A stretch of 64,000 bases of DNA from an uncultured Enterobacteriaceae bacterium (GTDB taxonomy: Bacteria; Myxococcota_A; UBA9042): contig CAYURO010000018.1 in assembly GCA_964447285.1 (NCBI GenBank), positions 20,522 through 84,521 of the forward strand. The letters are read 5' to 3'. Below the pieces are notes generated by a model. The model saw only the letters and a list, made by a program, of their open reading frames with translations. It did no database searches and was not told where the DNA came from. This document shows, piece by piece, positions 25,462-55,010 of the stretch; position 1 is the stretch's first letter; each line of letters starts with the position of its first letter. The translations under genes were made by a program, and so were the position numbers.

Positions 25462-25566
25462 CCTGCATCCGACGGTGCCCAATCGTACTCCTACCCCCCC
25501 ATGCCGTTTGGGTCTAAGCTTCGGCATTCCACTGCGACCGTTGGGCCGCCCACCTTGGGGGACGTC

Positions 25567-27726
25567 ATGACGCCTGCTTGCACGACCATGTTCCGCACAC
25601 TTCGACGGGTTGCGTTGGGCGTTCTTGCGCCGCTGCTGCTGCCGACACTTGCGTCTGCCGCAGTGCCGACCACCGTGCTGCTCGAGGGGACGCTGCAGGC
25701 GACGGGCGGCGGTCCGGCGGCGGACGGCAAGTATCTGCTGAATCTGGCGATCTATCCCGATGCGCTGGGTGGTCAGGCGGCGTGGAGCGAGCAGGGCGCT
25801 GAAGCGTCGGTTCAGGGCGGCTTGTTCAGTCTCGCCATGGGCGCAAAGGTCCCGCTGAAGCCCGAGCTGCTGGCGGCGCTGTCCAAAGCCTATCTGGGCG
25901 TGACCGTGCAGCCGGACCCCGAGCTACCGCGGGTGCCGGTACACGCCGTTCTGTACGCGTTGCGCGCTGGCGTGGCGACGGGGATCGACTGTTCCGGCTG
26001 CATCCAGACCGCGCATCTGGATCCGCAGGTGTTGGCCCCTTATGCCAAGTCGGCCGATCTGGCGGCCTATGCCAAGACCGCGTCGTTGGCCACGGTCGCG
26101 ACCTCGGGGGCCTTCGCTGACCTGTCGGGCGGCCCGGACCTGAGTGCCTATGCGAAGACGGCCTCGCTGGCGACGGTTGCGACATCCGGCACATACGCAG
26201 ACTTGGAGGGATTGCCGACCCTTGCCAAGCTGGGCATCGCCTGCGGGACCGGCTTGGTGGTGCGCGGACTGAAGGCAGACGGCAGCTACGACTGCGTGCA
26301 GGCGATGGACCCCTTGGCGCTGCCCAAGGATGCGCTCGACGAGGTCTCGAACGGCCTGTTGACCAACCAGTTCAACGAGGTCGCCGCCAGCACGAAACTC
26401 GTCCCCATCCCCGACAACAGCCCCGTCGGCATCAGTGACGTGATCGACGTGCCGGACTTCGGCACTGCCCAGACGTTCAGCGTAGCCGCCGAGATCGCCA
26501 ACAGCGACACCGGAAATCTGCGGATCACGCTCATCGACCCCACCGGCACCAAGTTCGTCCTGTGGGACAAGACGGCCAAGGGCACCATCGTCAAGACGAC
26601 GTGGCCCACCCCGACCAAGACGGTGTCCGGCGACTTGAGTACATGGATCGGCAAGAACCCTAAGGGAAAGTGGTACTTAGAGGTAATTGACGTCGCCTTC
26701 TTGAACAACGGCTTCGACGGTGCCCTGAAGGGGTGGAGCCTGAACATCGGCGTCATGTCGTCTGCCAAGGTCGGGTTGGCTGGTCTGCTGAAGCTGCAGA
26801 ACGCCGCCGAGGCCCCGCTTCCGTGCGGTCCGACACTGGCCGGTTCGCTGTACTTCGACACAGTGGCCAAGGCCGTGCGCTATTGCGACGGGGCGGCTTG
26901 GCGCAACTTGGCCGACACGTGCGGCAACGGCATTCTCGACGCCACCGAGCAGTGTGACGACGGCAACAACACCGATGGCGACGGCTGCTCGGCCACCTGC
27001 CAGACCGTGTGCGGCGACGGCAAGTTGCTGGGCAAGGAAGAGTGCGACGACGGCAACACCAAGGATGGCGACGGCTGCAGCGCGGCGTGCATCGCGTCGG
27101 TCGGTTTCTCGAAGGTGCGACCGGGCGCCTCGTGCGCTGCCATCCTCGCTGCGTGGACCAGTGCGGGCTGGACGGCCAAGGACGGCAAGTACTGGCTCGA
27201 CCCGAATCTGGGCGACCCAGCCGACGCGTTCCTGGCGACCTGCGACATGACGCAGAAGGGCGGTGGCTGGACCAAGGTCAGCGAGTTCGCCGAGACGTAC
27301 TACGACAACCTCAGCGACCGCAGCAAGATCCCGTACAAGGAAGTGCTGGTCCTCGAGTGGGACCACACCACCGCGACCCCCGTCTACTCGAACTTTGTGG
27401 TCCAGCACGCCTGCTACAACTCGGCCAAGACCGGCTTCCAGGTTGCCAACACATCGGCGAACTGCGACTCGGGCTATCAGGTCCGGGTCGGTGGCACGGG
27501 CGGTTCGTGCGGCGACGCCGAGGACGGCTGCTTTGGCTTGTACTACGGCGACTTGGCCGTTGGCGGCGGGTGCAACTGGAACTGCGGCGCGGGTGCCGTG
27601 AAGATCTGGGGCAAGGGCTACGCCTGCAATTCGTGCCGCTGCCGCAACGCGCCATACACGACAATCGAAGGCTGCGGCAACGGCGGTGCGTGGGGCAACA
27701 AGCGCTTCTGGATCTACGTGCGCTAA
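25567..27726 (+). CDS. Secreted multidomain protein: signal peptide - conserved N-terminal domain - ~24-aa tandem repeats - P-like (proprotein convertase P) domain - two Myxococcus Cys-rich repeats - fibrinogen-related domain
   Basis: Signal peptide LLLPTLASAA. Repeats DLAAYAKTASLATVATSGAFADLSGGPDLSAY. P-domain-like GKNPKGKWYLEVIDVAFLNNGFDGALKGWSLNI. CGNGILDATEQCDDGNNTDGDGCSATC occurs twice. CDMTQKGGGWT is a fibrinogen C-terminal-domain hallmark. Confidence 0.7.
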   Translation: MTPACTTMFRTLRRVALGVLAPLLLPTLASAAVPTTVLLEGTLQATGGGPAADGKYLLNLAIYPDALGGQAAWSEQGAEASVQGGLFSLAMGAKVPLKPELLAALSKAYLGVTVQPDPELPRVPVHAVLYALRAGVATGIDCSGCIQTAHLDPQVLAPYAKSADLAAYAKTASLATVATSGAFADLSGGPDLSAYAKTASLATVATSGTYADLEGLPTLAKLGIACGTGLVVRGLKADGSYDCVQAMDPLALPKDALDEVSNGLLTNQFNEVAASTKLVPIPDNSPVGISDVIDVPDFGTAQTFSVAAEIANSDTGNLRITLIDPTGTKFVLWDKTAKGTIVKTTWPTPTKTVSGDLSTWIGKNPKGKWYLEVIDVAFLNNGFDGALKGWSLNIGVMSSAKVGLAGLLKLQNAAEAPLPCGPTLAGSLYFDTVAKAVRYCDGAAWRNLADTCGNGILDATEQCDDGNNTDGDGCSATCQTVCGDGKLLGKEECDDGNTKDGDGCSAACIASVGFSKVRPGASCAAILAAWTSAGWTAKDGKYWLDPNLGDPADAFLATCDMTQKGGGWTKVSEFAETYYDNLSDRSKIPYKEVLVLEWDHTTATPVYSNFVVQHACYNSAKTGFQVANTSANCDSGYQVRVGGTGGSCGDAEDGCFGLYYGDLAVGGGCNWNCGAGAVKIWGKGYACNSCRCRNAPYTTIEGCGNGGAWGNKRFWIYVR

Positions 27727-28665: not shown

Positions 28666-28783
28666 CGTGTTCACCCCGGACGCCAAGGTCGCACCGCCGC
28701 CCGCCGACGTGGTACACCTGACCGGTCGGCGACCCACCATGGCCGGCCGGCCGCCCCCCCGTTTCCCCCGCACGGAGGTACAA

Positions 28784-30379
28784 GTGTCGACCTTCCTTTC
28801 GACCCGCCGCTGTTCGTTCATCGTCTTCCTTTCGCTACTTGCAGTGTCGGCCGGCTGCGGCTCGAGCTCGGGCGCAGGGGGCTACTACTACATTCCCGTG
28901 GATGCGGCGGACGGCACCGGATCCGACGGCAGCGACGCCGCCAATCCCGACGCCAACCCGGCCGATGCGAAGACCGACACGGTGGCCGACGTCACCGCCG
29001 ACGCGACCGACCTGGACGCCACCGAGACCCTCGACACGGTCGACGCCACCGACGTCCCGGACGGCACCGACACGACCGATGTCCCCGACACGACAGACGT
29101 CTTCGACACCACGGACACCACCGAGGTGCAAGACACGACCGATGCCGTCGACACCACCGACGTCGTGGACACCACCGACACGACCGACACGATGGACGTC
29201 CCCGACACGACCGACACGATGGACGTCCCCGACACCACCGACACGTCCGACACGACCGACGCCGCGGACACGACCGACACGACCGACGGCGTCGTGGGAC
29301 CTGCCTGCGCCCCCACGCCGAATATCGCCGGTCTGCTGCAGTGCCCCGAGGGCAAGGTCGACGTGACGCTGAAGGCCGCGACCGTCACCTACGTGTTCAA
29401 TGCCGGCTACTTCCTGGCCGACGAGAGCACCACCCACGGCATCGAGGTCTACGTCGGCACCACCTGGACGTACCCCAAGCCGGTCGTGGGCGACCGCGTC
29501 GACTTGCACCTGACCGAGTGGGGCAACTGGAAGAACCAGCAGGAGATCACGGCGGCCGACGCGCCCGTGGCCTTGGGCGTGGGCAACCCGGCCGTGTTCA
29601 AGCTGGACCTGCAGTCGCCCGGATCCGCCGGCGTGCTGGCCGAGACCCACGAGAGCCGCGAGGTGGGGGGCACGGGCCTGAAGGTGCTGACGGTGGCCGG
29701 CGCGGACCTGACCGTTGCGTCCAACGTGCTGCCCAACATGGTGTTTCGCGTCGACGGCACCAGCACTTTGTGCAAGGGAGCGGTCTTCGAGCTGAAGTCG
29801 GCCGTCATCACCCAATTCGGCGAGATCTATCGTGTGCAATTGATGAACGGTGCAGCAGACTTGGGCACCATCGATATCTCGGGCTGCACGCCTGACCCGA
29901 TCGACGAGACGCAGAACTGGGGCTTCGAAGACCTGGCCGCCACCGACCCGCCGGCGGGTTTCGTCAAGCTGACCGGTCTGTTCTCGGCCCTGCGCACCAC
30001 GACCGTCGCCCACGCCGGCGCGGCGTCTTGCGAACTGATCTGGACCTCGGACGCCAACCAGGACTTTACCACCGGCGCCTATGCCGAGATCCTGCCCGGC
30101 GACACGGTCAAATTCAGCTTCTGGGTGCTGGACGAGGATGTGGCGGGCCGTGTGCGGCCGGGGCTGCTGTTCTACAAGGCCGACAAGACGTTCTTGAAGT
30201 CAGAGTATGCCACGGGGTACTCGGTCGACGCGGCGGGGGTGTGGAACCAGCTCGCGCATACCTTCGTCGCTCCGGCCGACGCCGCGTTCGTGCGCGGGCA
30301 GGTGCGGATGTACGACGTGGCGCCCTTCCCGGGGTCGGCCAAGGTGCGCATCGACGACTGGAGCATCGGCAAGCAGTAG
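28784..30379 (+). CDS. Secreted lipoprotein with a long acidic Thr/Asp-rich linker and a C-terminal globular domain
   Basis: GGAGG Shine-Dalgarno then a GTG start. Lipobox AVSAGC. About 120 aa of TDTTDV-type low complexity. No family motif recognised in the C-terminal domain. Confidence 0.55.
   Translation: MSTFLSTRRCSFIVFLSLLAVSAGCGSSSGAGGYYYIPVDAADGTGSDGSDAANPDANPADAKTDTVADVTADATDLDATETLDTVDATDVPDGTDTTDVPDTTDVFDTTDTTEVQDTTDAVDTTDVVDTTDTTDTMDVPDTTDTMDVPDTTDTSDTTDAADTTDTTDGVVGPACAPTPNIAGLLQCPEGKVDVTLKAATVTYVFNAGYFLADESTTHGIEVYVGTTWTYPKPVVGDRVDLHLTEWGNWKNQQEITAADAPVALGVGNPAVFKLDLQSPGSAGVLAETHESREVGGTGLKVLTVAGADLTVASNVLPNMVFRVDGTSTLCKGAVFELKSAVITQFGEIYRVQLMNGAADLGTIDISGCTPDPIDETQNWGFEDLAATDPPAGFVKLTGLFSALRTTTVAHAGAASCELIWTSDANQDFTTGAYAEILPGDTVKFSFWVLDEDVAGRVRPGLLFYKADKTFLKSEYATGYSVDAAGVWNQLAHTFVAPADAAFVRGQVRMYDVAPFPGSAKVRIDDWSIGKQ
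28900..29300. repeat. Degenerate DNA repeats (gacaccaccgac / gacacgaccgat) encoding the D/T-rich linker
   Basis: Visible iterations of gacacgaccgacacgatggacgtccccgacac and similar units. They generate antisense ORFs rich in Ser/Val. Confidence 0.8.
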
Positions 30380-34600: not shown

Positions 34601-36559
34601 GACGCCCTGACTCCAGAGGTCGTTGACGTACGTCCACGCGTTGATGCTGGCGGCGATGGTCTCGCCAGTCAGCGGGTCGTTCGAGTCGACCATGATGCCC
34701 CAGGGCGACGGCGTCTGCGGTTCGGGAAGGCCATTGACCTGGTGGTAGCGCAGGTCGCCGCGGCGGACGTTCAGGGCCTTGGCGCACACCGCCAGCGTCT
34801 CGGTGTCGCCGTCGACGCGGGCCGTCTCGCACTTGTCCGCGGTCCAGCCGATCGGCAGGCGCTCGGCCGTCTTGGCGCACCCGATGGGGTCGCCCAGCTC
34901 GACGGGGCTGTGGCACAGGACGATCATCTCGGGCATCTTCGCGATCGCCTTGACGCCGTCGGTATAGCCGCGCTCTGTCCCCACCGTGTCGGCCAGGTTC
35001 TGGCACAGCAGCTCGTTGCGACCCAACTGCGCGTAAGCACGGCTGTTGCGGCAGTCGTCGACTTCCATCGCCAGCGCGACGGCATCACCGTTGTCGTCCT
35101 GCTGGCCGTCGTACACAGGGAACTGCGTATCGCACTTGGCGTACTCGGCAACCAGGTCCACCGCGGCCCCGCCGTCGGGAACAGTGGCGCTCGCTCTGGC
35201 TTGGGCAACGCGCTTGCACTCACCGAGCTGCGACGACCGGATGGCGACGCGCAGGGCGATGTCCCATTCGTGGGTGGCCTGCTCCGTGGCCTCGAAGTAC
35301 TTCAGGTTGCTGCCACCGGTGTAGTACCACGCGACCGGCTTGGCCAGGCGCTGGGTCAAGGGCAGGGTGCAGCGCTGCTTGAACGTGTCGCAACGAGATC
35401 CGTTGCCAACGGAAGCGCACTCGTCTTCGGTGCCGTCCTGGTTCAGGTCGCGGTGCGGGTCCTGGCCATACTTGGTGGTCTCGGGGGTATAGCAGGCGAC
35501 CGGACCGCCCTTGGGGTCCTGGAACGTCGTGGGCGTCGAGGTCGGCTTGCCGCTGGCGTCCAGCTTGTAGTACGCGTGGCTCTGCTCCCAGATGTTGTAA
35601 TAGTTCAAGAAGCGGTACCACTTGGCGTCGGTCATGCCGTAGTTGCGCGTGTATCCCGACCGCTCGGTGGTGAAGCCGCCAAACGCCTGAAAGCGAAAGC
35701 CGTCCCAGTCGCGGGGTTCGAAGTCGGTGACCACGACGCGGCGGAAGGCATGGCGGACGGTGAGCTCGATGGGGTTGCACGAGCCCGCGGGCGCGGTGCC
35801 GCCGGCAAAGTCGGCCTCGAGGAAGCAGGCAGGGAACGTGTCGATGCCCCAGCCCAGGTGGCTGAGATCGACGACGCCCGGCTTGGCGAACGCCTTGCTG
35901 GTGATGTCGAAGTAGCTGTTGTCTTTGGCGAAGTACGGGGCATTCGGGTCGTTCGGGTCCTGGACGTTGTACGCCATGGGCTCGTACTGCACGCCGCCGT
36001 AGATGCCGACCATCGACAGGGTGTCGAAGTCGTAGCTATCCACGTTCTGGTTCTTCGACCAGTCGATCCGCATGTGGGTGCGCTGGTACCAAGGGCGGTC
36101 GTAGTTGTTCTCCTCGAGGATGTTCATCTCCTCGCCCGTGGTGGAGTTGTACGACCGCTTGATGTCGAAGTGCGACTCGATGCGGAACGCGCAGACGATC
36201 ACGCCGTCCTGCGTCGCCTTGCCCAGGCCCTTGCCGTCCGAGCCCTCGATGCGCTCGTAGGCGAGGCGGCCGATCAGCAGCCCTTCGGTGATCTGCCACT
36301 TGATACGCGACACCGGCTGCGCATAGGTCGACGTGAACAGGCCGTCCTGCGACGCGCCGTAGCCGACGTCGATCAGGGTGGCCTGCGCCCAGAATTCCGG
36401 GTCGTCAGCGGTGCTGACCAGGTCCTTGCCGACGAACAGGGTCTTGTCGAGCGCCCAGGGCTGGACGCGGTCGATCGGGGCACGCTCCTCGGCACAACTG
36501 GCGGAAAAGGCCGAAAGGGCGAGCAGCAGGAACAGGGGGGCGCGAAGGGCGCGGAACAT
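31664..36559 (-). CDS. Giant secreted or lipo-anchored zinc metalloprotease-like protein (HEXXH zincin), about 1632 aa
   Basis: Signal peptide with lipobox FSASC. Zincin motif VIAHEMGHSIGLRHNF near residue 1000. The rest resembles no family I can name. Confidence 0.7.
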   Translation of the reverse strand: MFRALRAPLFLLLALSAFSASCAEERAPIDRVQPWALDKTLFVGKDLVSTADDPEFWAQATLIDVGYGASQDGLFTSTYAQPVSRIKWQITEGLLIGRLAYERIEGSDGKGLGKATQDGVIVCAFRIESHFDIKRSYNSTTGEEMNILEENNYDRPWYQRTHMRIDWSKNQNVDSYDFDTLSMVGIYGGVQYEPMAYNVQDPNDPNAPYFAKDNSYFDITSKAFAKPGVVDLSHLGWGIDTFPACFLEADFAGGTAPAGSCNPIELTVRHAFRRVVVTDFEPRDWDGFRFQAFGGFTTERSGYTRNYGMTDAKWYRFLNYYNIWEQSHAYYKLDASGKPTSTPTTFQDPKGGPVACYTPETTKYGQDPHRDLNQDGTEDECASVGNGSRCDTFKQRCTLPLTQRLAKPVAWYYTGGSNLKYFEATEQATHEWDIALRVAIRSSQLGECKRVAQARASATVPDGGAAVDLVAEYAKCDTQFPVYDGQQDDNGDAVALAMEVDDCRNSRAYAQLGRNELLCQNLADTVGTERGYTDGVKAIAKMPEMIVLCHSPVELGDPIGCAKTAERLPIGWTADKCETARVDGDTETLAVCAKALNVRRGDLRYHQVNGLPEPQTPSPWGIMVDSNDPLTGETIAASINAWTYVNDLWSQGVVDQARYIAGELKAESITEGKYIKDWSEAARAASANGLLPRLTAEEFNARTAQSEGIDMNAERAAAFEQQHPEAVQAAVDLKHQLKEVTASAKVASAMAPTYAARRQMAMGTLFEASLITPAVQVLAGMVGMPLGQAVLDIASPLRGGNPAVQRELRRMKETALAERGMCIMQMAEAPLSIAGLADVLQEKFGQFDPTQPPEVQQARAEKMRDYVARRAHYAVIAHEMGHSIGLRHNFISSSDATGFRPQYWQLRTKNGKVKTDCKALAPDGSTCVGPRYFDPVTKEERDNLIWMWQQSSIMDYAGETTQDFLGLGVYDFAATRMLYGDSVAVYADDTYKAGTPRGKAMLGKTDNFGGILGLTFSLGSKDIHYSALNTGFELIKDCQEVDPLKFKPARWNEATDGSFSPLLDGLIVKIDERYTRCRQQKVDYVPWTSLRAPATNELPTGGYRGGVAVDPQKRQRVPYGFATDNWADLGNLSVYRHDNGADPYEIFGFMITQQEVGHIFDNYRRGRKSFSVRGAANRALTRFNEKLRDGAKGLALYRNIYRDVALEVGADPDELWAYAAKSFFPDNVLASGIVFDHFAKQLARPEAGEHFADAANGVLRSMESKMSSSPATVTVVVPNGATGYFGQVTYGGRPVENQLASDKGEYDSQYTLNAGSYYDKMYISMLMTESVDNFISSSLGDFVDARYRSASLADLFPDGFRRLLANQLTGDDFLKGPRLAAGANGKPLIDTQKFPTMGFGWTTWFGMQPTSCFPAQNSTVCTTYGSTDDKPFGAVAPVKTAVVDPQVGWEQQKFLIAWTMLYLPENAQQGWMDMMRIWELGKDSDPGIKARIEFHNPIGKIYVARRIGRETIFGRTVEKGIAARVLEYANSLLKDAYQTTPGPDQDGDGIPDWYEPVYSDKTGEALVKYDPSMENVNGGPIAGCSATDNSGCKCVHNKACMKLGQYTEVPFYLREAVDAYGFGGANAKGIY

Positions 36560-36596
36560 CGAGGACCTCCCGGACGGGCGAGACGAAATGGCGGGG

Positions 36597-37637
36597 CTAG
36601 AAGAGCTCCGCGGGGGCGATCTGCAAATTGAGGTACAGATTCGTGAAACGATTGAAGAAAACCGATTGGTAGGTCGAATCTGGCGCGAGCTGGCTGTTGA
36701 CCGTCTGGGCGCCCAGCGACACATTCACCACATCCGTGATGTCCCACGACGCCTCGACCACGTAGACCATGGTCACGCGCTGCGACGGGTCGTTGGGGTC
36801 CGGCTCGACGGTGTAGGTCGTGCCTTTTGCGGTGCCGAGGGCGTAGAGCTGGTCGGCGTGCACTCCCGCGGTGCCGGTAACGGCCACGGACGATACGGGC
36901 GTCCACGTCGCGTTGGCCAAGCCGGTCCAGCGCCACTCGGGGTTGCGCAGGCCGGTGTGCGAGAACTGTGAGCAGCCGCTGGTCAAGTCGGCGCAACCCA
37001 CGACCCACGGCGAGTCGAGCTGGCCGGTCGTGTACTCGTGCGCCATGTAGGTGCCGCGGCCGGTCAACGACAGCTGCAGGCCCTGGCCGGCGAAGCGTGA
37101 GCTCCATGCGGCCGTGACGCCCAGCGACGGGGCAATGATGAGCGAGCGGGCTGCCGACGCCTTGCTGGTGGGCAGGTTCACGCCCAGGTCCGAGGACACC
37201 GACAGGCCGGTGGGGGTCACGGCGTCAGGCAACAAGATCGCATAGCGGGCGCCCAGTTGCGTGTCACCGACCATGGTCTCACCTTGGTAGGTGGTCCAGT
37301 CGCTCTGGGTCAACTCGCGCGAGAGGCTGCTGGATGCGTTGAAGCGCACGCGGCGGCTCAGGGTGTAGCGGACGGTGGCGCTCAGCGACATCTCGACGTT
37401 CGGATTCCAGGTCGGGTCCGCAGCCTTGTCCAGTCCGATCGCGAGGACGTCGGTTCGCAGGCTGACGTCGGAGCCGCGGAAGTTGGCCGCGATGCCGGGA
37501 TCGTCAACGGGCACCGCCACCGCCGTCACTGCATCCTCCGCCGCCGCCGAGGCGGGCCGAGCAAGCATTCCGATGAGGAGGAGCAGGAGGGGCAAGCTCA
37601 GGCAGGGAGAGCAGAGCGGACGAAGAGACCGTGGCAT
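36597..37637 (-). CDS. Outer-membrane beta-barrel protein, likely co-transcribed with the downstream zincin gene
   Basis: Signal peptide LLLLLIGMLARPASAAA. Alternating amphipathic strands. C-terminal ...IAPAELF with terminal Phe is a classic OMP signature. 37 bp upstream of the zincin start. Confidence 0.6.
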   Translation of the reverse strand: MPRSLRPLCSPCLSLPLLLLLIGMLARPASAAAEDAVTAVAVPVDDPGIAANFRGSDVSLRTDVLAIGLDKAADPTWNPNVEMSLSATVRYTLSRRVRFNASSSLSRELTQSDWTTYQGETMVGDTQLGARYAILLPDAVTPTGLSVSSDLGVNLPTSKASAARSLIIAPSLGVTAAWSSRFAGQGLQLSLTGRGTYMAHEYTTGQLDSPWVVGCADLTSGCSQFSHTGLRNPEWRWTGLANATWTPVSSVAVTGTAGVHADQLYALGTAKGTTYTVEPDPNDPSQRVTMVYVVEASWDITDVVNVSLGAQTVNSQLAPDSTYQSVFFNRFTNLYLNLQIAPAELF

Positions 37638-48509: not shown

Positions 48510-48824
48510 TCTCTCCGGCTACCGACGCAGCGCCGCCGACCGCGTGAGCCGACCATGACTCACGCGGCCTGCGGTGTGCCTCGCCTGCACTGGTCTTCTC
48601 CGATTCGGCCTTTCATCGGCCGATCGACTGACCGTCGCCAAGCCGCGGAAACACGCGCGGGTCACGGCATCCAAACCGCCGGCAGGACTGTCGCAAAGCC
48701 TTCTGGTTCGCTATACTTCGCGCCCACTTCCGCGCCCACGTGCGGAGCTTGAGTCGTCGCAACGCACCTACGCGGCCACGGCGACTGGACACCCTCAACT
48801 CTTGTGTTTCATCGAGGCTCTGCC

Positions 48825-50885
48825 ATGAGGACGACCGCAACCCGCTTCTCCGTTCCCTGCGCGCTCGCGCTTGCCTGTCTTTGGTTTGCGGTTCCGGCCG
48901 CAGCCCTCGTGCCCACCACGGTTGGGGTAGAGGGGCTACTGCTGTCGTCCGGTGGTGGTCCGGCGGCAGATGGCGACTATGCGGTGACCTTCGCCATCTA
49001 CAAGGACGTCAGCGGCGGAGCCGCCGTGTGGTCGGAAGGCCCAGTGACGCTGACCGTGAAGAGCGGGCAGTTCGTCCACGCGTTGGGCAGCAAGACGGCG
49101 CTGACCCAGCAGGTCCTTGCCACCGCCGGCGCTCAGTCGTTCTTGGGGGTGCGGGTGGGCATCGACCCCGAGTTCGCTCGCAAGCCGCTGAATTCAGTGA
49201 CCACAGCGCTGCGGGCGGCTGTGGCTGAGAACATCGACTGCTCCGGCTGCATTGGCTTGGGGCAGCTGGATGCCACCGCATTGGTCGATTACGCCAAGGT
49301 TGCCGACCTCTCCAAGGTGGCGACCACGGGCAAGTTCTCTGACCTGCAGGGGGGGCCGGACCTGTCCGCGTACGTCAAGATGGTTTCGCTTGCGACCGTC
49401 GCGCTGTCGGGGGCGTATGCCGACCTGTCCGGCATCCCCGACCTGTCGGTCTATGCGAAGTCCGCAGCCCTGCACAAGGTCGCTACGACGGGCAAGTATG
49501 CAGATCTGGTGGATGCGCCGGTGCTGGCGGCGGTGGCGAAGTCGGGCTCGTACAAGGACCTGATCGACCAGCCGACGCTGCCCAAGCTGGGCGACAAGTG
49601 CGGCACCGGCCTTGTGATGCGCGGCATTCTGGCGAACGGCGCCTACGACTGCGTGGTTGCGCTCGACCCGGCGGCTCTGCCCGGCGACGGCCTGAACGAG
49701 ATCTCCAATGGCCTGATCACCAATGAGTTCGCAGACTCAGCCAGCGGCGGCACGGGTGTGAAGATCCCCGACAACAGCCCGGTCGGTGTGTCCGACATCA
49801 TCGACTTTCCCGACGTGGGCTTGGCCAAGAAGCTGACGATCAACATCGACATCACCAATTCCAAGATCAACACCGTGACCGTGTACCTCTACGACCCGGC
49901 GAATCAGGAGTACGTCCTGCACCAGAAGTCGAGTTCAGGCACCAGTCTGAAGACCGGTTACCCAACCCCGACCAGCACGGCGTCGGGCGACCTGAGCACT
50001 TGGCTTGGCAAGAATCCCAAGGGCAAGTGGTTCCTGAAGGTTGTGGACAACGACTTCCTCAACAACACGACAGACGGTCAGATCAACGCCTGGTCGATTT
50101 CGATCGAGACGCTGTCCAGCAAGAAGGTTCAGGTCAAGGGCGACCTGCTGGTGGACGGTGGCATCAAGGTCGGCGCCGACGCGACGGCGTGCACGGCCGC
50201 GAAGGCTGGCACGCAGCGATACGCCAACGACCGGATCGAGTACTGCAACGGATTGGTTTGGCTACCGGTCGGCGCTTCCGGGGCGACGTACCGCTGGGCC
50301 GTTTGGTCCAGCTACGACCAGAGTTGCTGCTGGTTCGGCGCTGGCGGTAACGGCAACGCGGCGCTGTTCGGCGGCGTGACTCCGCAGGCTTGGGGTGATG
50401 GCAGCGGTTTTGCGGGTCAGATGAGTGCCGACAAGGAAGTGCTGCGGACCCTGTTTACGAACAAGGGCTACGCCCAGAAGAACGCGACGGTGTGGGCCGA
50501 GTCCTGGTACACCTACAGCTCAACCAACTCCAAGCACGCGGGAGCGTTGTTCCGCATCCGCAATACCACGGGCTCCGCCATCACTTGGACGCCCTACGCG
50601 TACATGACGTCCTACGCGGGCTGGGGCAACTACGCGAGCGTGGCTCTAAACGGTACCAGCATTTGGAACAGCGGCGGCAACAACTACTACTCGAATTCGA
50701 CCTTCAGTTGGAACCTGTCGATCCCAGCGAACCGCGTCAGCACGGCGATCTTCATCTCAGCCAACACGGCACCGTCCGGCACGGCGACCACGTTCCTCGC
50801 GTTCTACAACAACAGCTTGGCGCTTCCGGCCGGTTTGGTGTTCGTGGACGATATGGACTTCGCGACAGGTGGCTGGGAGCAGTAG
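48825..50885 (+). CDS. Secreted paralog of the 25567..27726 protein: same N-terminal domain, ~24-aa repeats and P-like domain, but a different C-terminal domain (Trp/Tyr/Asn/Ser-rich, lectin-like)
   Basis: Signal peptide ALALACLWFAVPAAA. About 45-50% identity to the paralog over the first ~420 aa (VPTTV..GGGPAADG..; GKNPKGKWFLKVVDNDFLNNTTDGQINAWSISI). C-terminal domain has no Myxo Cys repeats or FReD. Confidence 0.7.
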   Translation: MRTTATRFSVPCALALACLWFAVPAAALVPTTVGVEGLLLSSGGGPAADGDYAVTFAIYKDVSGGAAVWSEGPVTLTVKSGQFVHALGSKTALTQQVLATAGAQSFLGVRVGIDPEFARKPLNSVTTALRAAVAENIDCSGCIGLGQLDATALVDYAKVADLSKVATTGKFSDLQGGPDLSAYVKMVSLATVALSGAYADLSGIPDLSVYAKSAALHKVATTGKYADLVDAPVLAAVAKSGSYKDLIDQPTLPKLGDKCGTGLVMRGILANGAYDCVVALDPAALPGDGLNEISNGLITNEFADSASGGTGVKIPDNSPVGVSDIIDFPDVGLAKKLTINIDITNSKINTVTVYLYDPANQEYVLHQKSSSGTSLKTGYPTPTSTASGDLSTWLGKNPKGKWFLKVVDNDFLNNTTDGQINAWSISIETLSSKKVQVKGDLLVDGGIKVGADATACTAAKAGTQRYANDRIEYCNGLVWLPVGASGATYRWAVWSSYDQSCCWFGAGGNGNAALFGGVTPQAWGDGSGFAGQMSADKEVLRTLFTNKGYAQKNATVWAESWYTYSSTNSKHAGALFRIRNTTGSAITWTPYAYMTSYAGWGNYASVALNGTSIWNSGGNNYYSNSTFSWNLSIPANRVSTAIFISANTAPSGTATTFLAFYNNSLALPAGLVFVDDMDFATGGWEQ

Positions 50886-50937: not shown

Positions 50938-52101
50938 ATGACCGAACGCCATCACATCTACCTGATCCCCGGCTTCTTCGGGTTCACCAATCTGGGTGAC
51001 CTTCGCTATTTCGCCCACGTGAACGACGTGCTGCGGGACGAGTTCGCGCGCCGCGACTTGGACGTGGTCGTGCACCCGGTGCGGACGTGGCCCACGGCTT
51101 CCGTCCGCCGCCGGGCGCAGCGGTTGCTACAGGTCATCGCGGAGACAAGCGGGGATACGGACGAGCCGGTGCACCTGATCGGCCATTCGTCGGGAGGTCT
51201 GGACGCGCGGTTGCTGGTCTCTGCTGGCGCGTCGCTGTCCGAAGACCCGTCGGCGGAGCGCATTGCCGCCCGGGTTCGCTCTATCGTCACAGTGGCCGCA
51301 CCGCATTTCGGCACGCCGCTGGTGTCGGTATTCACCCGCCGGTTGGGTGGCCGGCTGCTGCAAGTGCTTTCGCTGTCTACGATTTACGTCCTGCGTTATG
51401 GCCGCCTGCCGCTGTCGGTCGCGGTGCGGCTGGGCGGCCTTCTGGTCAAGCTGGAAGACCGGATGGGCACCGGACAGGACGTGCTTGACCAACTGTACGG
51501 CGAGCTGCTGGACGACTTCTCGGACGAGCGCCGCGTGGCCTTGGACGAATTCCTGACCGATGTGGGCAGCGACCAGCAGCTGATTCCGCAGCTGACGCCT
51601 GAAAACATGGCGACTTTCAACGCGACGACGCGCGACGACGGTGGGGTTCGCTACGGCTGCGTGCTGGCCCGCGGACGGCCGCCGGGGCTCGCCTCGACGT
51701 TGGCCGCGGGCCTTGGGGTGTACGCGCAGGCCAGTCACGCCTTGTACGCAACGATCTATCGAGGGGCGTCACGCACGCCGCATGACCGCACGGTGATGCC
51801 GTCCTACGAGCAAGTTCAGGCGATGCGGGCGGCTTGGGGCGAGGTTCCGGACCCGCGCGACAACGACGGCATCGTGCCCACGCTGTCGCAGCTGTGGGGC
51901 GAGGTGATCTGCGCCGTCACGGCGGACCATCACGACCTGATCGGCCACTTCGACGATACCGAGCACGACCCGCCGCACTACGACTGGATCACCAGTGGCT
52001 CGGGGTTCAAGCGGCGGGAGTTCGAGGCGTTGTGGGCTTCGGTGGCGCACTGGATTGCAGTTCGAGGCATTCCGTCGGCGGGAAAGGGCGCGCCCAGATA
52101 G
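50938..52101 (+). CDS. Alpha/beta-hydrolase, putative secreted-type lipase/esterase
   Basis: Nucleophile elbow HLIGHSSGG (GHSxG). HIYLIPGFFGF oxyanion region. Downstream Asp and His (DNDGIV; DHHDLIGHF). Confidence 0.6.
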   Translation: MTERHHIYLIPGFFGFTNLGDLRYFAHVNDVLRDEFARRDLDVVVHPVRTWPTASVRRRAQRLLQVIAETSGDTDEPVHLIGHSSGGLDARLLVSAGASLSEDPSAERIAARVRSIVTVAAPHFGTPLVSVFTRRLGGRLLQVLSLSTIYVLRYGRLPLSVAVRLGGLLVKLEDRMGTGQDVLDQLYGELLDDFSDERRVALDEFLTDVGSDQQLIPQLTPENMATFNATTRDDGGVRYGCVLARGRPPGLASTLAAGLGVYAQASHALYATIYRGASRTPHDRTVMPSYEQVQAMRAAWGEVPDPRDNDGIVPTLSQLWGEVICAVTADHHDLIGHFDDTEHDPPHYDWITSGSGFKRREFEALWASVAHWIAVRGIPSAGKGAPR

Positions 52102-52277
52102 CTGCTTCATCGACCCGGCGCACGCTGTTCTCCAGCGATGGCGACAGGTTGGGCGTCGAGTTGTTGCAGGCCGACTGCTCAGGACTCAGGCGCGCTGGTT
52201 GCGATGCGCAGGCATCTCCGATACCTTCATATTCACTATTCAGGCGTTTCGAAGGCGGGTCGTGCGCCGTGGAGCGG

Positions 52278-55010
52278 ATGCGGATGAAGCGTGGTCCCCT
52301 CGTCGCAATTCTGGCCGTCTCATTGGTGTTCGCAGGCTGCCGTGCCGAATTCCTGCCCGCTTCGGCCGCACCTGGCGAGGACGTCGATTCGCTGGACGCT
52401 GCAGACACTGCCGTCCCCGACGGGGCGGTAGAAACGACGCCCGACATTGTGGCGGACCTCGCGGTGGATACCTCTGCCGACGACGTGGCGGACGTTGGTG
52501 TTGATCAGGACACAGCCGCAGAGACCCTTGCCGACGCGGAGTTGGACGTTGCCGTCGACGCTGTCACCGACGCGGCTGTGGACGACGCGACGCCCGACGA
52601 TGTTGTCGTCAACGTCGACGTCGATGCCTCGGAGGTGCTGGATACGGTCGAGCCCTGCACCAACCAGACCTGCGACGACGGCCAGCCATGCACAGCGGAC
52701 AGTTGCAAGGACGGCGTGTGCTCGCATCTGGCCCTCGCGGGGGCCTTCTGCAACGACGGCGACGCCTGCACGGTCGGGGACAAGTGCGTGCAGGGCCTGT
52801 GCAAGGCGACCGGGCCGGCCAACTGCGACGACGGCCAACCGTGCACCATCGACACGTGCGACAAGGTCGCCGGCTGCCAGAAGAAGGCAGCGGTCGACGG
52901 CATCGCGTGCGAAGACGGCAGTGCGTGCACGGCTGGCGACGCCTGCGCGATCGGCAAGTGTGTGGCGGGCAAGCCGGTGGCGTGCGACGACGGCAACGTG
53001 TGCACCGACGACGGCTGCGACGCGGTGCAAGGGTGCGTCCATCCAGCGGTTTCGGCAGACATGGGCTGCGACGACGGCGACGCTTGTACCGAAGGCGATG
53101 TTTGCGGGGGAGCCACCTGCAAGGCTGGCAAGCCGCTGATCTGCGACGACGGCAAGCCTTGCACGACCGACAAATGCGTGGCAGCGACGGGATGCGCGAA
53201 TGCCAACACGGAGATCGAGACCGTGTGCAACGACGGCAACGACTGCACGGTCGGCGACATGTGCGACGGACAGGGTAAGTGCGGCGGCCTGGGCAAAGAC
53301 TGCAACGACGATAACCCTTGCACCATAGATACTTGCGCCAATAGCGTCTGCGCCCACGGCCCGTCCGCCGTCGGCGACCCCTGCAGCGACGACAACCCCT
53401 GCACCTTGGGCGACGCCTGCAAGGACTCAGCATGCGTGGCGGGGACCCCCAAGGTTTGCGACGACAAGAACGCGTGCACGGCAGACGCGTGCGTGGCCGG
53501 GACGTGCAAGTACCAGCCGAAGGCCAGCGGTGCCTGCGACGACGGCGACGGCTGCACGGTCGACGATGCCTGCGACGCGGGCGTATGCGTGGGCGGCGCC
53601 GCCAAGACCTGCGACGACAACAACACCTGCACCAAGAACACTTGCGCTGAGGGCAGTTGCAGCTTCCCCGCGCTGAGCGGACTCAGCTGCGACGACGGCG
53701 ACGGCTGCACGCTGGGCGACACCTGCCAGGTGGGTCAGTGCAAGGCCGGCACCGCCAAGGACTGCGGCGATAGCCATCCGTGCACCGACGACAGTTGCGC
53801 CGGTGGCGTCTGCGCCAACCTGGCGAACGCGGCCCCGTGCAACGACGGAGAGGCCTGTACGGTGTCGGACCAGTGCAGCAACAAGTCGTGCCAGGCCAAG
53901 AAGTTGGCCACCGTCACCCATGCCCAGGTGAAGGCCTGCGGTTACGTCGGGGCCGTCTCTTTCCGCCAGCGCGGGATGACGGTGGTTCCCGGTGGCTACG
54001 CCGTCGCGGGCGACGCGAGCTGTGGCGGTTCCAGCGGCAACGACAGCACGGGCTCGATGCTTCTGCGCCTGGGTCCCGACGGCGTCGCGCTGGGTCCCGC
54101 GACGTCGTTCTACCCGTCCACGTCGAATCTGGTGCTGGGCGTGGTCTGGGACGGCAAGTCGATTCTGGTTCCGTTGTACCAGGACCAGACCGGACTGCGG
54201 CGCCTCGTGGTGGTCCGTTTTGGACTCGATGGCGTCCTGAAGGGCGAGCTGCTGCTGCCGACCGCGGGCGTCGTCTATCCGGCCGACGCCAGGGCAATTG
54301 CGGGCGGCGTCGCGGTGCTGATCGGCGGCAAGGTGCCGTCCAGCGACTCTGTCACCGACACGTCGACCACCCTGTTCGTCGTCGCCAACGACACTTTGGT
54401 CGCGGCCTTGCCGACGTCGTCCGGTGCGGCGCAGTACTCGGGCCTGGTGCTGCCCGTCTCGGGGGCCTACATCGTGTTGTACGGCGCGGGAACCATGGCG
54501 CGTCACGCTGTTTCTGCAGACGGCAGCAAGATCGTGTCCACCGTGACTACGTCGTCGCCGCAGCCGAATTCGTTCCCGGGTGCTCCCGTCACTGCGCTGG
54601 GCCTGACAGGGGACCCGAACATCGCCGTCGTCGCCGGCTACCAGCCGCCCGGCGGACCGTCGGTGGGACCTGCTTGGGCGTCACTGTTCTACACCTCGAA
54701 TCTGCAGTACATCGCCCGGGTTCCGCTGGTCGACGCGGGCGGCAAGACGGCGGTCGTTGCGCCAATGGCGATCGTGCCGCTGACGACGACAGAGTTTCTG
54801 GTGGCCGGCATCAAGACGAACAGCGGGACGACGTACGCGGTCCGCATGAACACGGCGGGTCAGGTGTTGTCGACCATCGACACGCTGCCGCAAGAGGCCA
54901 CGACCTGGCTGTACGACGCGGCCTCGGGCGTGTTGACGCTGGGACTGGTGCATCAGAACACGCAGCTGTCCTTTGCCAAGACCCAACCGGTGCCGGCGGT
55001 CTGCAAATAG
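52278..55010 (+). CDS. Large lipoprotein with about 20 tandem Cys-rich modules (C-DDG-x-CT-x-D-x-C) and a C-terminal beta-rich, propeller-like region
   Basis: Lipobox VFAGC. Acidic linker. Regular 36-40-aa Cys modules from about residue 100 to 560. C-terminal 350 aa are Gly/Val/Ala-rich with repeated strand-like segments. Confidence 0.65.
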   Translation: MRMKRGPLVAILAVSLVFAGCRAEFLPASAAPGEDVDSLDAADTAVPDGAVETTPDIVADLAVDTSADDVADVGVDQDTAAETLADAELDVAVDAVTDAAVDDATPDDVVVNVDVDASEVLDTVEPCTNQTCDDGQPCTADSCKDGVCSHLALAGAFCNDGDACTVGDKCVQGLCKATGPANCDDGQPCTIDTCDKVAGCQKKAAVDGIACEDGSACTAGDACAIGKCVAGKPVACDDGNVCTDDGCDAVQGCVHPAVSADMGCDDGDACTEGDVCGGATCKAGKPLICDDGKPCTTDKCVAATGCANANTEIETVCNDGNDCTVGDMCDGQGKCGGLGKDCNDDNPCTIDTCANSVCAHGPSAVGDPCSDDNPCTLGDACKDSACVAGTPKVCDDKNACTADACVAGTCKYQPKASGACDDGDGCTVDDACDAGVCVGGAAKTCDDNNTCTKNTCAEGSCSFPALSGLSCDDGDGCTLGDTCQVGQCKAGTAKDCGDSHPCTDDSCAGGVCANLANAAPCNDGEACTVSDQCSNKSCQAKKLATVTHAQVKACGYVGAVSFRQRGMTVVPGGYAVAGDASCGGSSGNDSTGSMLLRLGPDGVALGPATSFYPSTSNLVLGVVWDGKSILVPLYQDQTGLRRLVVVRFGLDGVLKGELLLPTAGVVYPADARAIAGGVAVLIGGKVPSSDSVTDTSTTLFVVANDTLVAALPTSSGAAQYSGLVLPVSGAYIVLYGAGTMARHAVSADGSKIVSTVTTSSPQPNSFPGAPVTALGLTGDPNIAVVAGYQPPGGPSVGPAWASLFYTSNLQYIARVPLVDAGGKTAVVAPMAIVPLTTTEFLVAGIKTNSGTTYAVRMNTAGQVLSTIDTLPQEATTWLYDAASGVLTLGLVHQNTQLSFAKTQPVPAVCK
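52578..53960 (+). repeat. Protein-level tandem array of Cys-rich modules (about 114-nt period at the DNA level, degenerate)
   Basis: Repeated gcgacgacggc...tgcac units. Encodes CxDGxxCTxDxCxxGxC iterated. Confidence 0.7.

What the first reader, a model, noticed from the sequence alone, without database searches (positions are those of the whole stretch)
48825..50885. Paralog pair of secreted repeat/P-domain proteins with swapped C-terminal binding modules
The proteins at 25567 and 48825 share signal peptide, N-terminal domain (VPTTV..GGGPAADG.Y...AIY), the same ~24-aa tandem repeat (DLS.YAK.ASLATVATSG.YADLSG.PDL, 3-4 copies) and the P-like domain. They diverge completely afterwards: FReD versus a Trp/Tyr/Asn/Ser-rich lectin-like domain. 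This is a modular architecture with a conserved scaffold and an exchangeable C-terminal head, as seen in receptor-binding proteins, phage tail-fibre-like proteins and polymorphic adhesins. The repeat itself resembles phage tail-fibre repeats, though I cannot verify that.
Basis: seen in the sequence. Interest (0 to 1): 0.65.

Follow-up and report, generated by a model that had tools for sequence, protein, structure and literature searches.

The report
Secreted fibre proteins with swappable tips
Two genes in this uncultured myxobacterial genome belong to a large family of secreted, phage-tail-fibre-like proteins that share one conserved body and carry different sugar-binding-type tips, probably a toolkit for recognising different targets such as prey cells.

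Summary
ORF A (48825..50885) and ORF B (25501/25588..27726) are 45% identical over about 455 residues (E 5e-115) and share nothing after that.

The shared body consists of:
- a signal peptide
- a 116-aa beta-rich N-domain
- 27-aa repeats (4 in A, 2 in B), also found in phage long tail fibres
- a disulphide loop
- a proprotein-convertase-type P-domain, with no protease domain present
- a short stalk

The pair is part of a family of more than 650 proteins from lake and groundwater Myxococcota MAGs. One MAG has at least 18 paralogs, and a related contig carries eight to nine in tandem. More than 15 tip types occur, including C1q-like, CTHRC1, TLD, C-lectin-like, tail-collar and propellers.

A's tip also occurs in other phyla on collagen, coiled-coil or bare N-domain stalks.

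Best reading: secreted, probably trimeric, N-terminally anchored lectin fibres, analogous to the Bdellovibrio MAT adhesins. Trimerisation, anchoring and ligands are inferred. This is a new variant of a known kind.

The parts
48825..50885 (+). ORF A, 686 aa from the ATG at 48825 (693 aa from the GTG at 48804): family member with the lectin-like 'A-type' tip
   Evidence: P0001 is 100% identical, 686 aa; GAGG 8 nt upstream of the ATG.
48825..48905 (+). A: Sec-type signal peptide (MRTTATRFSVPCALALACLWFAVPAAA, then LVPTT)
   Evidence: Read from the sequence. In 150 relatives the N-domain starts at residues 19-54, directly after such a leader. No signal-peptide predictor was available.
48906..49253 (+). 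A: N-domain, about 116 aa, beta-rich, ending in a CSGC motif. Presumed anchoring or presentation domain.
   Evidence: pLDDT about 90. Its profile finds 38,274 representative clusters. Homologous to the Bacteroidota-type N-domain by hhalign, 95.7% probability, E 9e-9.
49281..49577 (+). A: phage-tail-fibre-type repeats, three of 27 aa and one of 18 aa (core motif VAtSGxYxDLxGxP)
   Evidence: phrog_17509, E 5e-12; same unit in a Pseudomonas jumbo-phage long tail fibre.
49599..49652 (+). A: conserved Cys-bridged loop (CGTGLVMRGILANGAYDC)
   Evidence: C259 is invariant and C276 at least 90% conserved (686-aa numbering) in 62 homologs.
49722..50123 (+). A: P-domain (proprotein-convertase type beta-sandwich) with no accompanying S8 protease domain
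50124..50279 (+). A: stalk (GDLLVDG...) and Cys-bridged hairpin (C..G..RY....YCNG..W). This is the junction zone where similarity to paralogs ends.
   Evidence: It is only 71% identical to the ortholog in L005, against 91-96% elsewhere.
50280..50882 (+). A: C-terminal tip of about 200 aa. A jelly roll of an undescribed domain family with the signature YRW, FGGV.PS.W.DG, LFR..NTT, NG, LP.GL..VDDLD.
25588..27726 (+). ORF B, the paralog with a fibrinogen-related tip. The ORF is open from 25501; the likely start is M23 (25567) or M30 (25588).
   Evidence: 94% ortholog in L066.
25660..26001 (+). B: N-domain
   Evidence: 52% identical to A's N-domain; included in profile A2.
26032..26220 (+). B: two 27-aa tail-fibre-type repeats and a partial leader unit
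   Evidence: phrog_30808, E 4e-7.
26437..26769 (+). B: P-domain
   Evidence: Pfam PF01483, E 4.3e-10.
26911..27108 (+). B: two myxobacterial Cys-rich acidic repeats (TIGR02232 / DUF4215)
   Evidence: This segment is 94% identical to paralog L071, while its flanks are 43-75% identical.
27109..27723 (+). B: fibrinogen-related (FReD/intelectin-like) tip with the motif C-D-M-T-x-x-GGGWT
   Evidence: NF040941, 42.7 bits against a cut-off of 30. Profile against PDB hits intelectin at 1.6e-14 and ficolin-2 over nearly the whole domain at 1.3e-7.

Best explanation
A and B are two members of a large Myxococcota multigene family of secreted, fibre-like lectin/adhesin proteins.

Each protein is exported by a Sec signal peptide. 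I propose the following roles for its parts:
- The conserved N-domain holds the protein at the producer's surface.
- The phage-tail-fibre repeats, the disulphide loop, the P-domain and a short beta-stalk form a conserved shaft.
- The C-terminal tip binds a ligand, most likely a glycan, on a target such as a prey cell, a particle or another cell.

The family diversifies by keeping the shaft and exchanging the tip. B carries a fibrinogen-related/intelectin-like tip behind two Cys-rich repeats. A carries a jelly-roll tip of a previously undescribed domain family. The fibre is probably a homotrimer.

Shown here: the domain architecture, the homology of each module, the tip exchange, the family size and the tandem arrays.

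Inferred: trimerisation, surface anchoring through the N-domain, glycan binding, and a role in target or prey recognition.
For: Paralogy and tip swap:
- A and B are 45% identical over the scaffold and unrelated in the head.
- All 120 top homologs share the scaffold, and their tails fall into at least 13 clusters.
- Tips recognised: CTHRC1_C at E 4e-29; weak C1q, C-lectin/FGE and collagen-IV C4 hits. TLD comes from precomputed Pfam annotation. The tail-collar-like label for P0082/P0075 rests only on reading their sequences; Pfam found nothing in P0082 and P0075 was not scanned.
- Further tips: FG-GAP and lactonase propellers, and Xlink.

Export and an extracellular setting:
- N-terminal leaders directly precede the N-domain in 150 relatives.
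- Cys pairs are conserved.

Shaft related to phage fibres:
- The 27-aa unit is shared with phage long tail fibres.
- The best viral fold matches are tail fibre, minor tail and J-like proteins, including a phage protein named for a P-domain.

Tips are lectin-type:
- The B-type profile hits intelectins, ficolins, FIBCD1 and fibrinogen.
- A's tip is nearest to GH2 sugar-binding and PA14 adhesin domains.

Trimer-compatible:
- A-type tips in other phyla sit on collagen GXY repeats or on stretches that read as coiled coils.
- Several sister tips (C1q, CTHRC1) belong to families known as trimers (established knowledge).

The N-domain as a common base:
- Its profile finds 38,274 clusters, and in the 150 matches listed the domain starts at residues 1-54.
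- Minimal proteins of signal peptide, N-domain and A-tip (about 330 aa) exist.
- It is homologous to the Bacteroidota N-domain.

Repertoire:
- At least 18 paralogs occur in one MAG, and at least 8-11 in four others.
- Eight to nine paralogs lie in tandem on one contig with different tips.
- Identity is mosaic: DUF4215 is 94% identical while its flanks are 25-75%.

Precedent: the Bdellovibrio MAT fibres have a signal peptide, a conserved N-domain of about 130 aa, a trimeric fibre, variable tips, 21 paralogs, surface display and glycan binding (PMC10769870).
Against: - No experiment and no multimer model. The monomer model leaves the repeat region at pLDDT below 55, so the shaft structure and the oligomeric state are unknown.
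- Homology of this N-domain to the Bdellovibrio MAT N-domain could not be tested, because no Bdellovibrio sequence was obtainable and the afdb50 library was unavailable.
- No export route across the outer membrane and no anchoring partner is evident. No conserved neighbouring gene was found.
- The predatory lifestyle of these uncultured MAGs is assumed, not shown.
Confidence: 0.6

Rival explanations
1. They are soluble secreted lectins or agglutinins, a bacterial counterpart of ficolins, intelectins or C1q. They are released into the medium or matrix to aggregate or coat targets and are not held on the producer's surface.
For: Signal peptide, no C-terminal sorting tag, no lipobox, and no anchoring partner gene. 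The tips are homologous to soluble animal lectin heads.
Against: The strictly N-terminal, very widespread conserved N-domain is most simply explained as a docking module. Relatives that keep only the N-domain and the tip exist. The analogous MAT fibres are surface-displayed (PMC10769870). None of this is decisive.
Confidence: 0.2
2. They are tail fibres of an extracellular contractile injection system, a tailocin or a prophage. The N-domain would be a baseplate-attachment domain and the tips would be receptor-binding domains.
For: The repeat is shared with phage long tail fibres. Viral fold matches are tail proteins. eCIS fibres also combine conserved N-terminal attachment domains with swapped tips, including C1q, collagen and lactonase propellers, and Myxococcota are enriched in multi-fibre loci (PMC12923769).
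Against: Sec signal peptides and conserved disulphide-type Cys pairs do not fit cytoplasmic assembly. No sheath, tube, baseplate, capsid or terminase family was found in about 45 ORFs scanned across the 64-kb window, nor beside the tandem array. Paralogs are scattered over many contigs of one genome. eCIS loci hold at most five fibres.
Confidence: 0.05
3. They are polymorphic self/kin-recognition receptors in the manner of Myxococcus TraA, mediating cell-cell recognition within the species and not target capture.
For: Myxobacterial Cys-rich repeats (TIGR02232) occur in B and many paralogs. A's tip has a PA14-like fold. The terminal domains are highly variable.
Against: The variable domain is C-terminal, not N-terminal. 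No MYXO-CTERM or other C-terminal sorting signal is present; the proteins end in the globular tip, and NCBIfam finds no such model. Orthologous tips are 93-95% conserved between related MAGs and not allelically hypervariable. Variation lies between paralogs, not between alleles.
Confidence: 0.1
4. They are subtilisin-like proprotein convertases, as the automatic annotations say.
For: JGI names the family 'subtilisin-like proprotein convertase family protein', and NCBI names members 'proprotein convertase P-domain-containing protein'. The P-domain is real.
Against: No Peptidase_S8 or any other catalytic domain is detected in A, B or the tails. The P-domain sits mid-protein between fibre repeats and a stalk.
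Confidence: 0.01

Closest known systems
Bdellovibrio bacteriovorus MAT (mosaic adhesive trimer) fibre adhesins (Caulton et al. 2024, PMC10769870)
   Same: Signal peptide followed directly by a conserved beta-rich N-domain of about 120-130 aa. A fibre-like shaft related to phage fibres. Unrelated, independently folding C-terminal tips, including TNF/C1q-like and C-type-lectin-like ones. About 20 paralogs per genome. The authors already extend MAT to other predators, including a Myxococcales protein and collagen-bearing Bacteroidota proteins.
   Different: The proteins are shorter (600-780 aa against about 1000). The shaft is built from 27-aa tail-fibre repeats and a P-domain, not long beta-helices. 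No S74 chaperone-protease tips were seen. The tip set is dominated by FReD/intelectin-like domains and the new A-type domain. Homology of the N-domains was not testable here, so membership is open.
Phage long tail fibre proteins of PA5oct-like jumbo Pseudomonas phages (e.g. XAI94161.1), phiRSL1 and Lentibacter podophage tail fibres
   Same: The same 27-aa repeat unit (…DLSxYxxxxxLxxVATtGxYxDLxGxPDL…): 40% identity over 111 residues, E 6e-13. Both follow the logic of a conserved body with a variable tip.
   Different: A and B have Sec signal peptides and Cys pairs, no phage genes nearby, and are chromosomal multigene family members. Only the repeat segment is shared.
eCIS tail fibres with swapped receptor-binding domains (PMC12923769)
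   Same: A conserved N-terminal attachment module with horizontally exchanged tips, including C1q, collagen and propellers. Multi-fibre loci are enriched in Myxococcota.
   Different: There is no eCIS operon context and signal peptides are present, so these are stand-alone genes.
Animal soluble pattern-recognition lectins (ficolins, intelectins, FIBCD1, C1q, CTHRC1)
   Same: B-type tips are sequence-level members of the FReD superfamily. Sister paralogs carry CTHRC1_C (E 4e-29) and C1q-like heads. Both are oligomeric stalks carrying a C-terminal recognition head. A-type heads sit on collagen stalks in other phyla.
   Different: A and B have no collagen stalk. The part of the FReD after GGGWT is hypervariable and Cys-rich. 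The organisms are bacteria, and the direction of any transfer is unknown.
Proprotein convertase P-domain (PF01483; furin/kexin)
   Same: Sequence and fold match of the central domain.
   Different: No S8 catalytic domain is present. The domain is used as a shaft element.
Myxococcus xanthus TraA (from my own knowledge: PA14-like variable domain, Cys-rich repeats and MYXO-CTERM)
   Same: TIGR02232 Cys-rich repeats in B. PA14-like fold resemblance of A's tip.
   Different: The order of modules is reversed and there is no MYXO-CTERM. Variability lies between paralogs and not between alleles.

Membership tests
MAT fibre adhesins (Bdellovibrio type) | Signal peptide followed immediately by a conserved beta-rich N-domain of about 130 aa | tested here: inconclusive
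   The architecture is met: a leader followed by a 116-aa beta-rich domain, pLDDT about 90. Homology to the Bdellovibrio N-domain itself could not be tested. No Bdellovibrio MAT sequence was obtainable, PDB holds only tip fragments, and afdb50 was unavailable. Indirect support: the domain is homologous to the Bacteroidota N-domain, and the MAT authors list Bacteroidota and Myxococcales proteins as MATs.
MAT fibre adhesins (Bdellovibrio type) | Homotrimeric fibre along the whole length | not testable with these tools
   Only monomer prediction was available, and the repeat region has pLDDT below 55. Indirect support: A-type tips occur on collagen and on stretches that read as coiled coils.
MAT fibre adhesins (Bdellovibrio type) | Conserved body with diverse, independently folding C-terminal tips, in many paralogs per genome | tested here: met
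   At least 13 tail clusters among 120 homologs. At least 18 paralogs in one MAG. A tandem array of eight to nine.
MAT fibre adhesins (Bdellovibrio type) | Surface display and glycan binding | not testable with these tools
   This requires experiment.
Phage long tail fibre | 27-aa SGxYxDLxxxP-type repeat | tested here: met
   tblastn E 6e-13 and the same period. PHROG hits.
Phage long tail fibre | Encoded among phage or tail structural genes; no secretion signal | tested here: not met
   Signal peptides are present. No phage or tail Pfam family was found in about 45 window ORFs.
Subtilisin-like proprotein convertase | P-domain | tested here: met
Subtilisin-like proprotein convertase | Peptidase S8 catalytic domain N-terminal of the P-domain | tested here: not met
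   No S8 hit in Pfam or NCBIfam at E up to 1.
Fibrinogen-related domain (FReD) superfamily (B tip) | Sequence membership including the C-x-M-x(n)-GGGWT core | tested here: met
   NF040941 at 42.7 bits, cut-off 30. The profile hits intelectins, FIBCD1, ficolin-2 (nearly the full domain), fibrinogen and angiopoietin. Several paralogs carry PF00147.
Fibrinogen-related domain (FReD) superfamily (B tip) | Conserved Ca2+ and ligand site in the P subdomain | not tested
   The C-terminal half is unalignable between paralogs (0-25% identity).
PA14 / galactose-binding-like lectin domains (A tip) | Fold similarity | tested here: inconclusive
PA14 / galactose-binding-like lectin domains (A tip) | Sequence membership (Pfam PA14 or a related model) | tested here: not met
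   None of 28 A-type heads hits any Pfam family significantly, and the PDB profile search finds nothing. The invariant D682-D683 recalls the calcium-binding Asp-Asp pair of PA14 lectins. That is from memory only and was not tested.
TraA-type myxobacterial recognition receptor | MYXO-CTERM sorting tag | tested here: not met
   The proteins end in the globular tip (…FATGGWEQ and …RFWIYVR). No NCBIfam hit for such a tag.
eCIS tail fibre | Located in an eCIS operon | tested here: not met
   No sheath, tube or baseplate families in the window or beside the L002 array.

The most novel reading that the evidence does not exclude
An uncultured freshwater Myxococcota lineage maintains a repertoire of about 20 genes for secreted, phage-fibre-derived, N-terminally docked trimeric lectin fibres. 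Their tips include bacterial versions of animal innate-immunity recognition heads (FReD/intelectin, C1q, CTHRC1, TLD, collagen-IV-NC1-like) and a new, widely exchanged tip domain (A-type). On this reading it is a bacterial pattern-recognition toolkit for prey or particle capture. It would be evolutionarily linked, through the shared N-domain, to the Bdellovibrio MAT fibres and to tens of thousands of N-domain proteins in other phyla.
Probability: 0.3. Interest if true: 0.8.

Novelty: new variant of a known kind. Interest (0 to 1): 0.6.

Why it matters
If the reading is right, three things follow.

First, mosaic fibre adhesins, so far characterised only in Bdellovibrio, would extend to a second, unrelated group of presumed predators. 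These would use a different shaft (tail-fibre repeats and a P-domain) and a different tip set.

Second, it would give a function to a domain family that is very large and not covered by Pfam: the N-domain, with 38,000 representative clusters. It would also define a new fibre-tip domain, the A-type head.

Third, the tip catalogue is rich in domains otherwise typical of animal innate immunity. That makes these genes useful for studying how recognition modules move between phages, bacteria and eukaryotes, and a source of natural glycan-binding modules.

There is also a practical point. The public annotation 'subtilisin-like proprotein convertase' for hundreds of these proteins is misleading.

Tried and rejected
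1. Direct test of N-domain homology to the Bdellovibrio MAT proteins failed on every route:
   - PDB holds only tip fragments, and the N-domain profile finds only weak NEAT-domain hits at E 2e-4.
   - The phage K1F S74 domain, and then a five-sequence S74 profile, did not retrieve Bd3182 from PDB.
   - A concatenate of 13 alternative tails hit no MAT entry.
   - The afdb50 library was not installed.
   - The representative search lists only the best 150 of 38,274 hits.
2. The repeat region alone finds nothing in PDB, so the repeat has no solved structure detectable by sequence.
3. Tandem Repeats Finder found no DNA-level repeat. The repeats are old and diverged.
4. A search for conserved neighbouring genes by all-against-all clustering of locus ORFs returned mainly antisense shadow ORFs of the family genes. 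No partner gene was identified. Precomputed gene calls show housekeeping neighbours.
It was repeated with five sequences.
6. Single-linkage clustering of tails merged the A-type and FReD-type tails through the shared stalk. They were re-classified with head cores.
7. The promoter and terminator scan gave nothing above chance.
8. The protease reading and the phage/eCIS fibre reading were considered and rejected (see the rival explanations).
Full report
**What is at the coordinates**

The window has 67% G+C. Its genes are typical of a Myxococcota chromosome: Ser/Thr kinases, sigma-54 activators, an OPT transporter, HemF and an M20 peptidase.

ORF A runs from 48804 to 50885 on the + strand. It gives a 686-aa protein identical to database protein P0001.

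ORF B is open from 25501 to 27726.

BLASTP of A against B gives 351 bits, E 5e-115, 45% identity over A33-486 / B52-467, and nothing beyond that. tblastn finds no further copy in the window.

**Anatomy of the shared body**

1. Both proteins start with a Sec-type leader. In A it is …AVPAAA, then LVPTT. In B it is …PTLASA, then AVPTT.
2. A 116-aa beta-rich N-domain follows, ending in CSGC. It is modelled at pLDDT about 90.
3. Repeats come next. The unit is 27 aa, sometimes 18, with consensus L-x-x-Y-A-K-x-A-x-L-A-x-V-A-t-S-G-x-Y-x-D-L-x-G-x-P-D. Over 333 units from 122 family members, four positions are 99-100% conserved. Copy number in the family ranges from 0 to 9. A has four core motifs and B has two, and the 45-residue gap in their alignment equals one long unit plus one short unit. 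There is no DNA-level repeat.
4. A conserved Cys-bridged loop follows.
6. Last is a short stalk (GDLxVDG…) and a small Cys-bridged hairpin, after which similarity ends. Region by region, identity between A and B is N-domain 52%, repeats 63%, loop 62%, P-domain 49%, stalk 26% and head 0%.

**The repeat is a phage tail-fibre repeat**

The repeat region hits PHROG families (phrog_17509 at E 5e-12, and a weak tail-fibre PHROG).

By tblastn it matches the 'long tail fiber protein' of PA5oct-like jumbo Pseudomonas phages (40% identity over 111 residues, E 6e-13), the phiRSL1 tail fibre and Lentibacter phage tail fibres.

The phage protein shows the same 27-aa period: …VASSGQYADLQGTPDLSDYVLSVSLADIATTGEYSDLINAPDLSVYANKTDLSDVATTGQYSDLLGIP….

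No solved structure contains this repeat by sequence.

**The two tips**

B continues with two myxobacterial Cys-rich repeats (TIGR02232, E 8.5e-21) and a fibrinogen-like domain (NF040941, 42.7 bits against a cut-off of 30).

On its own, B's head only reaches tenascin at E 0.011. A profile of 15 B-type heads does much better:
- intelectins and XEEL at 1.6e-14 to 5e-13
- procollagen C-propeptides at 1e-10
- FIBCD1 at 3e-9
- MFAP4 and tenascins
- ficolin-2 over nearly the whole domain at 1.3e-7
- fibrinogen beta/gamma, angiopoietins and tachylectin-5A

Between paralogs, the half of the domain after GGGWT is essentially unalignable (0-25% identity).

**The pair is part of a large family**

A full-length search returns at least 648 relatives. 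Every one that carries an organism name comes from a Myxococcota, 'Myxococcales' or 'Deltaproteobacteria' MAG.

All of the best 120 carry the scaffold at 40-63% identity. About 64-73 have an A-type tip: 74 give a BLAST match to A's tail, but ten of those match only the first 41-82 stalk residues, and 73 fall in the A-type cluster. The other tails form at least 12 more clusters.

Tips recognised:
- CTHRC1_C at E 4e-29
- TLD, from precomputed Pfam annotation
- weak C1q, C-type-lectin/FGE and collagen-IV-C4 hits
- tails that look tail-collar-like by eye only (P0082, P0075); Pfam found nothing in P0082
- FG-GAP propeller, TIG with a lactonase propeller, and Xlink/C-lectin
- several with no match at all

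All are in MAGs whose isolate names point to lake and groundwater metagenomes. A few are evidently mislabelled as Enterobacteriaceae or Klebsiella.

Lower-bound paralog counts are 18 in Loc090721-8m_bin-517, 11 in Deming_bin.407, 10, 9 and 8 in three further MAGs. In bin-517, the 16 scorable paralogs comprise 4 A-type, 1 C1q-like, 1 Cys-rich lectin-like, 1 P0092-type and 9 unassigned by head-core BLAST. By inspection, most of the unassigned tails printed for this MAG carry the C-D-M-T-x-x-GGGWT fibrinogen-like motif.

On a JGI contig, eight to nine paralogs with different tips lie head to tail, followed by housekeeping genes.

A and B each have 91-94% orthologs in related MAGs. Both appear to lie on the same 42,079-bp Deming contig. 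This rests on B's ortholog being in L066 on JBMOIG010000025.1 and A's ortholog MFZ4577922.1 being on a contig of the same length. If so, the pair is old and syntenic.

Identity is mosaic:
- A against its ortholog is 91-96% identical everywhere except the stalk junction, which is 71%.
- B against paralog L071 is N-domain 44%, P-domain 75%, Cys-rich repeats 94%, FReD 43% and then 25%.

This pattern fits module exchange at the stalk.

**The N-domain and A's tip are both mobile modules used well beyond this family**

A profile of the N-domain finds 38,274 representative clusters at E up to 1e-3, and 15,310 at E up to 1e-10. In the 150 matches listed, the domain starts at residues 1-54, the lowest values being truncated proteins.

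A search with A's tip alone returns 61 short proteins (113-355 aa) that are 43-63% identical to it. The named ones come from Verrucomicrobia, Neolewinella (Bacteroidota) and Thermoanaerobaculia MAGs. In these proteins the tip follows one of these elements:
- the N-domain directly, giving minimal proteins of signal peptide, N-domain and tip of about 330 aa
- collagen GXY repeats
- stretches that read as coiled coils
- a GDLxV stalk with the same hairpin
- PF26696
- a lipoprotein-type leader

A 122-sequence alignment across phyla gives a sharp signature: R497, W510, G524, P527, W530, F583-R584, N587, W595, N616-G617, P641, R661, F667, L674-P675-x-G677-L678 and D682-D683-x-D685.

The Myxococcota N-domain is homologous to the Bacteroidota N-domain by hhalign (95.7% probability, E 9e-9, 108 columns). 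In the Bacteroidota N-domain search, single hits also carry collagen, tail-collar, SprB or Big_1 annotations.

Collagen stalks imply that the A-type tip works as a trimer. This inference rests on the established trimeric nature of collagen helices.

**How it most likely works**

The architecture shown here is a leader, a conserved N-domain, a conserved shaft, and an exchangeable tip of lectin type. It comes in about 20 versions per genome.

The closest precedent is the Bdellovibrio MAT family. MATs have a signal peptide, a conserved beta-rich N-domain of about 130 aa, a trimeric phage-like fibre and diverse tips (S74, TNF-like, C-type lectin, novel sandwiches). There are 21 paralogs, they are surface-displayed, and one binds prey glycans. 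The authors already list Myxococcales, Bradymonadales and collagen-bearing Bacteroidota proteins as MATs.

I therefore propose that A and B are secreted, probably homotrimeric fibres. They would be docked by the N-domain to the producer's surface and present different glycan-binding tips to targets.

Trimerisation, docking, ligands and a role in predation are all inferences. Membership of MAT in the strict sense, meaning N-domain homology, could not be tested.

**Rivals**

- A soluble-lectin role is not excluded (0.2).
- A phage or eCIS fibre role is suggested by the repeat, the viral fold matches and the eCIS fibre catalogue. Against it are the signal peptides, the conserved Cys pairs, and the absence of any tail structural family in about 45 ORFs across the window and beside the tandem array.
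- A TraA-like kin-recognition role is disfavoured by the reversed module order, the lack of a MYXO-CTERM, and tips that are conserved between orthologs.
- A protease role is excluded by the absence of a catalytic domain.

**Novelty**

Full-text searches found no description of this family.

I rate it a new variant of a known kind, the mosaic fibre adhesins or receptor-binding fibres. The new features are the shaft composition, a tip catalogue rich in animal-type recognition heads, and a tip domain not covered by Pfam or detectable in PDB. Interest is moderate to high for people working on predatory bacteria, phage receptor-binding proteins or lectin evolution.

**Limits**

- The protein search tool appears to favour hits of similar length to the query, so domain-partner surveys are samples and not censuses.
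- No signal-peptide predictor, multimer prediction or AlphaFold-database search was available.

Noticed in passing
window 50124-50279 (A residues 441-492), compared with L005: A and its 91% ortholog in MAG bin-517 are 91-96% identical in every region except the stalk/hairpin junction, which is only 71% identical. This is a local divergence hotspot exactly where tips are exchanged.
   Followed up: partly
window 26911-27108 (B Cys-rich repeats), compared with L071:7841-10133: The two DUF4215/TIGR02232 repeats are 94% identical to those of a paralog from another MAG. That paralog's N-domain (44%), P-domain (75%) and FReD (25-43%) are much more diverged, which suggests recent recombination or gene conversion of this segment.
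   Followed up: partly
L009, L028, L035, L037, L040, L055, L063, L077, L080, L083: MAG records titled 'uncultured Enterobacteriaceae bacterium' or 'Klebsiella pneumoniae' carry this high-GC Myxococcota gene family. Their taxonomic labels are almost certainly wrong.
   Followed up: no
window 48906-49253 (N-domain profile A2): The N-domain profile gives weak hits to NEAT domains of Bacillus Isd proteins (3sik and 3sz6, E 2e-4 to 3e-4, about 50 residues). This could be a distant Ig-like relationship or chance.
   Followed up: no
window about 52300-55010 (+), within ORF 51834..55010: A large protein with a lipoprotein-like leader (MRMKRGPLVAILAVSLVFAGC) and many Cys-rich 'CxDGxxCTxDxC' repeats (Pfam Dicty_CTDC, E 1e-12), lying two genes downstream of A. 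This is another secreted Cys-repeat protein.
   Followed up: no
window 28667-30379 (+): A 570-aa ORF with a long Asp/Thr-rich 'DTTDV/DTTDT' low-complexity tract and no Pfam family, just downstream of B and hemF.
   Followed up: no
window 31664-36724 (-): A 1,686-aa ORF whose only Pfam signal is a short Met-zincin motif (DUF4953, E 8e-6). Otherwise a large protein with no other Pfam hit.
   Followed up: no
window 50280-50882 (A tip), residues D682-D683: An Asp-Asp pair is invariant in all 122 A-type tips, within the motif LP.GL..VDDLD. From memory, it recalls the calcium-binding Asp-Asp pair of PA14 lectins.
   Followed up: no
(tool behaviour): the search for homologous proteins returned hits close in length to the query: 476-789 aa for a 693-aa query, 113-355 aa for 204 aa, and 112-203 aa for 116 aa. 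It omitted the identical full-length protein P0001 from the tip-only search. Domain-partner surveys made with it are therefore biased samples.
   Followed up: partly
P0187, P0246 (about 1,540 aa): Two long relatives match the N-domain profile in three separate stretches and carry a TIG domain and a lactonase-type beta-propeller. The N-domain can apparently be repeated within one protein.
   Followed up: no
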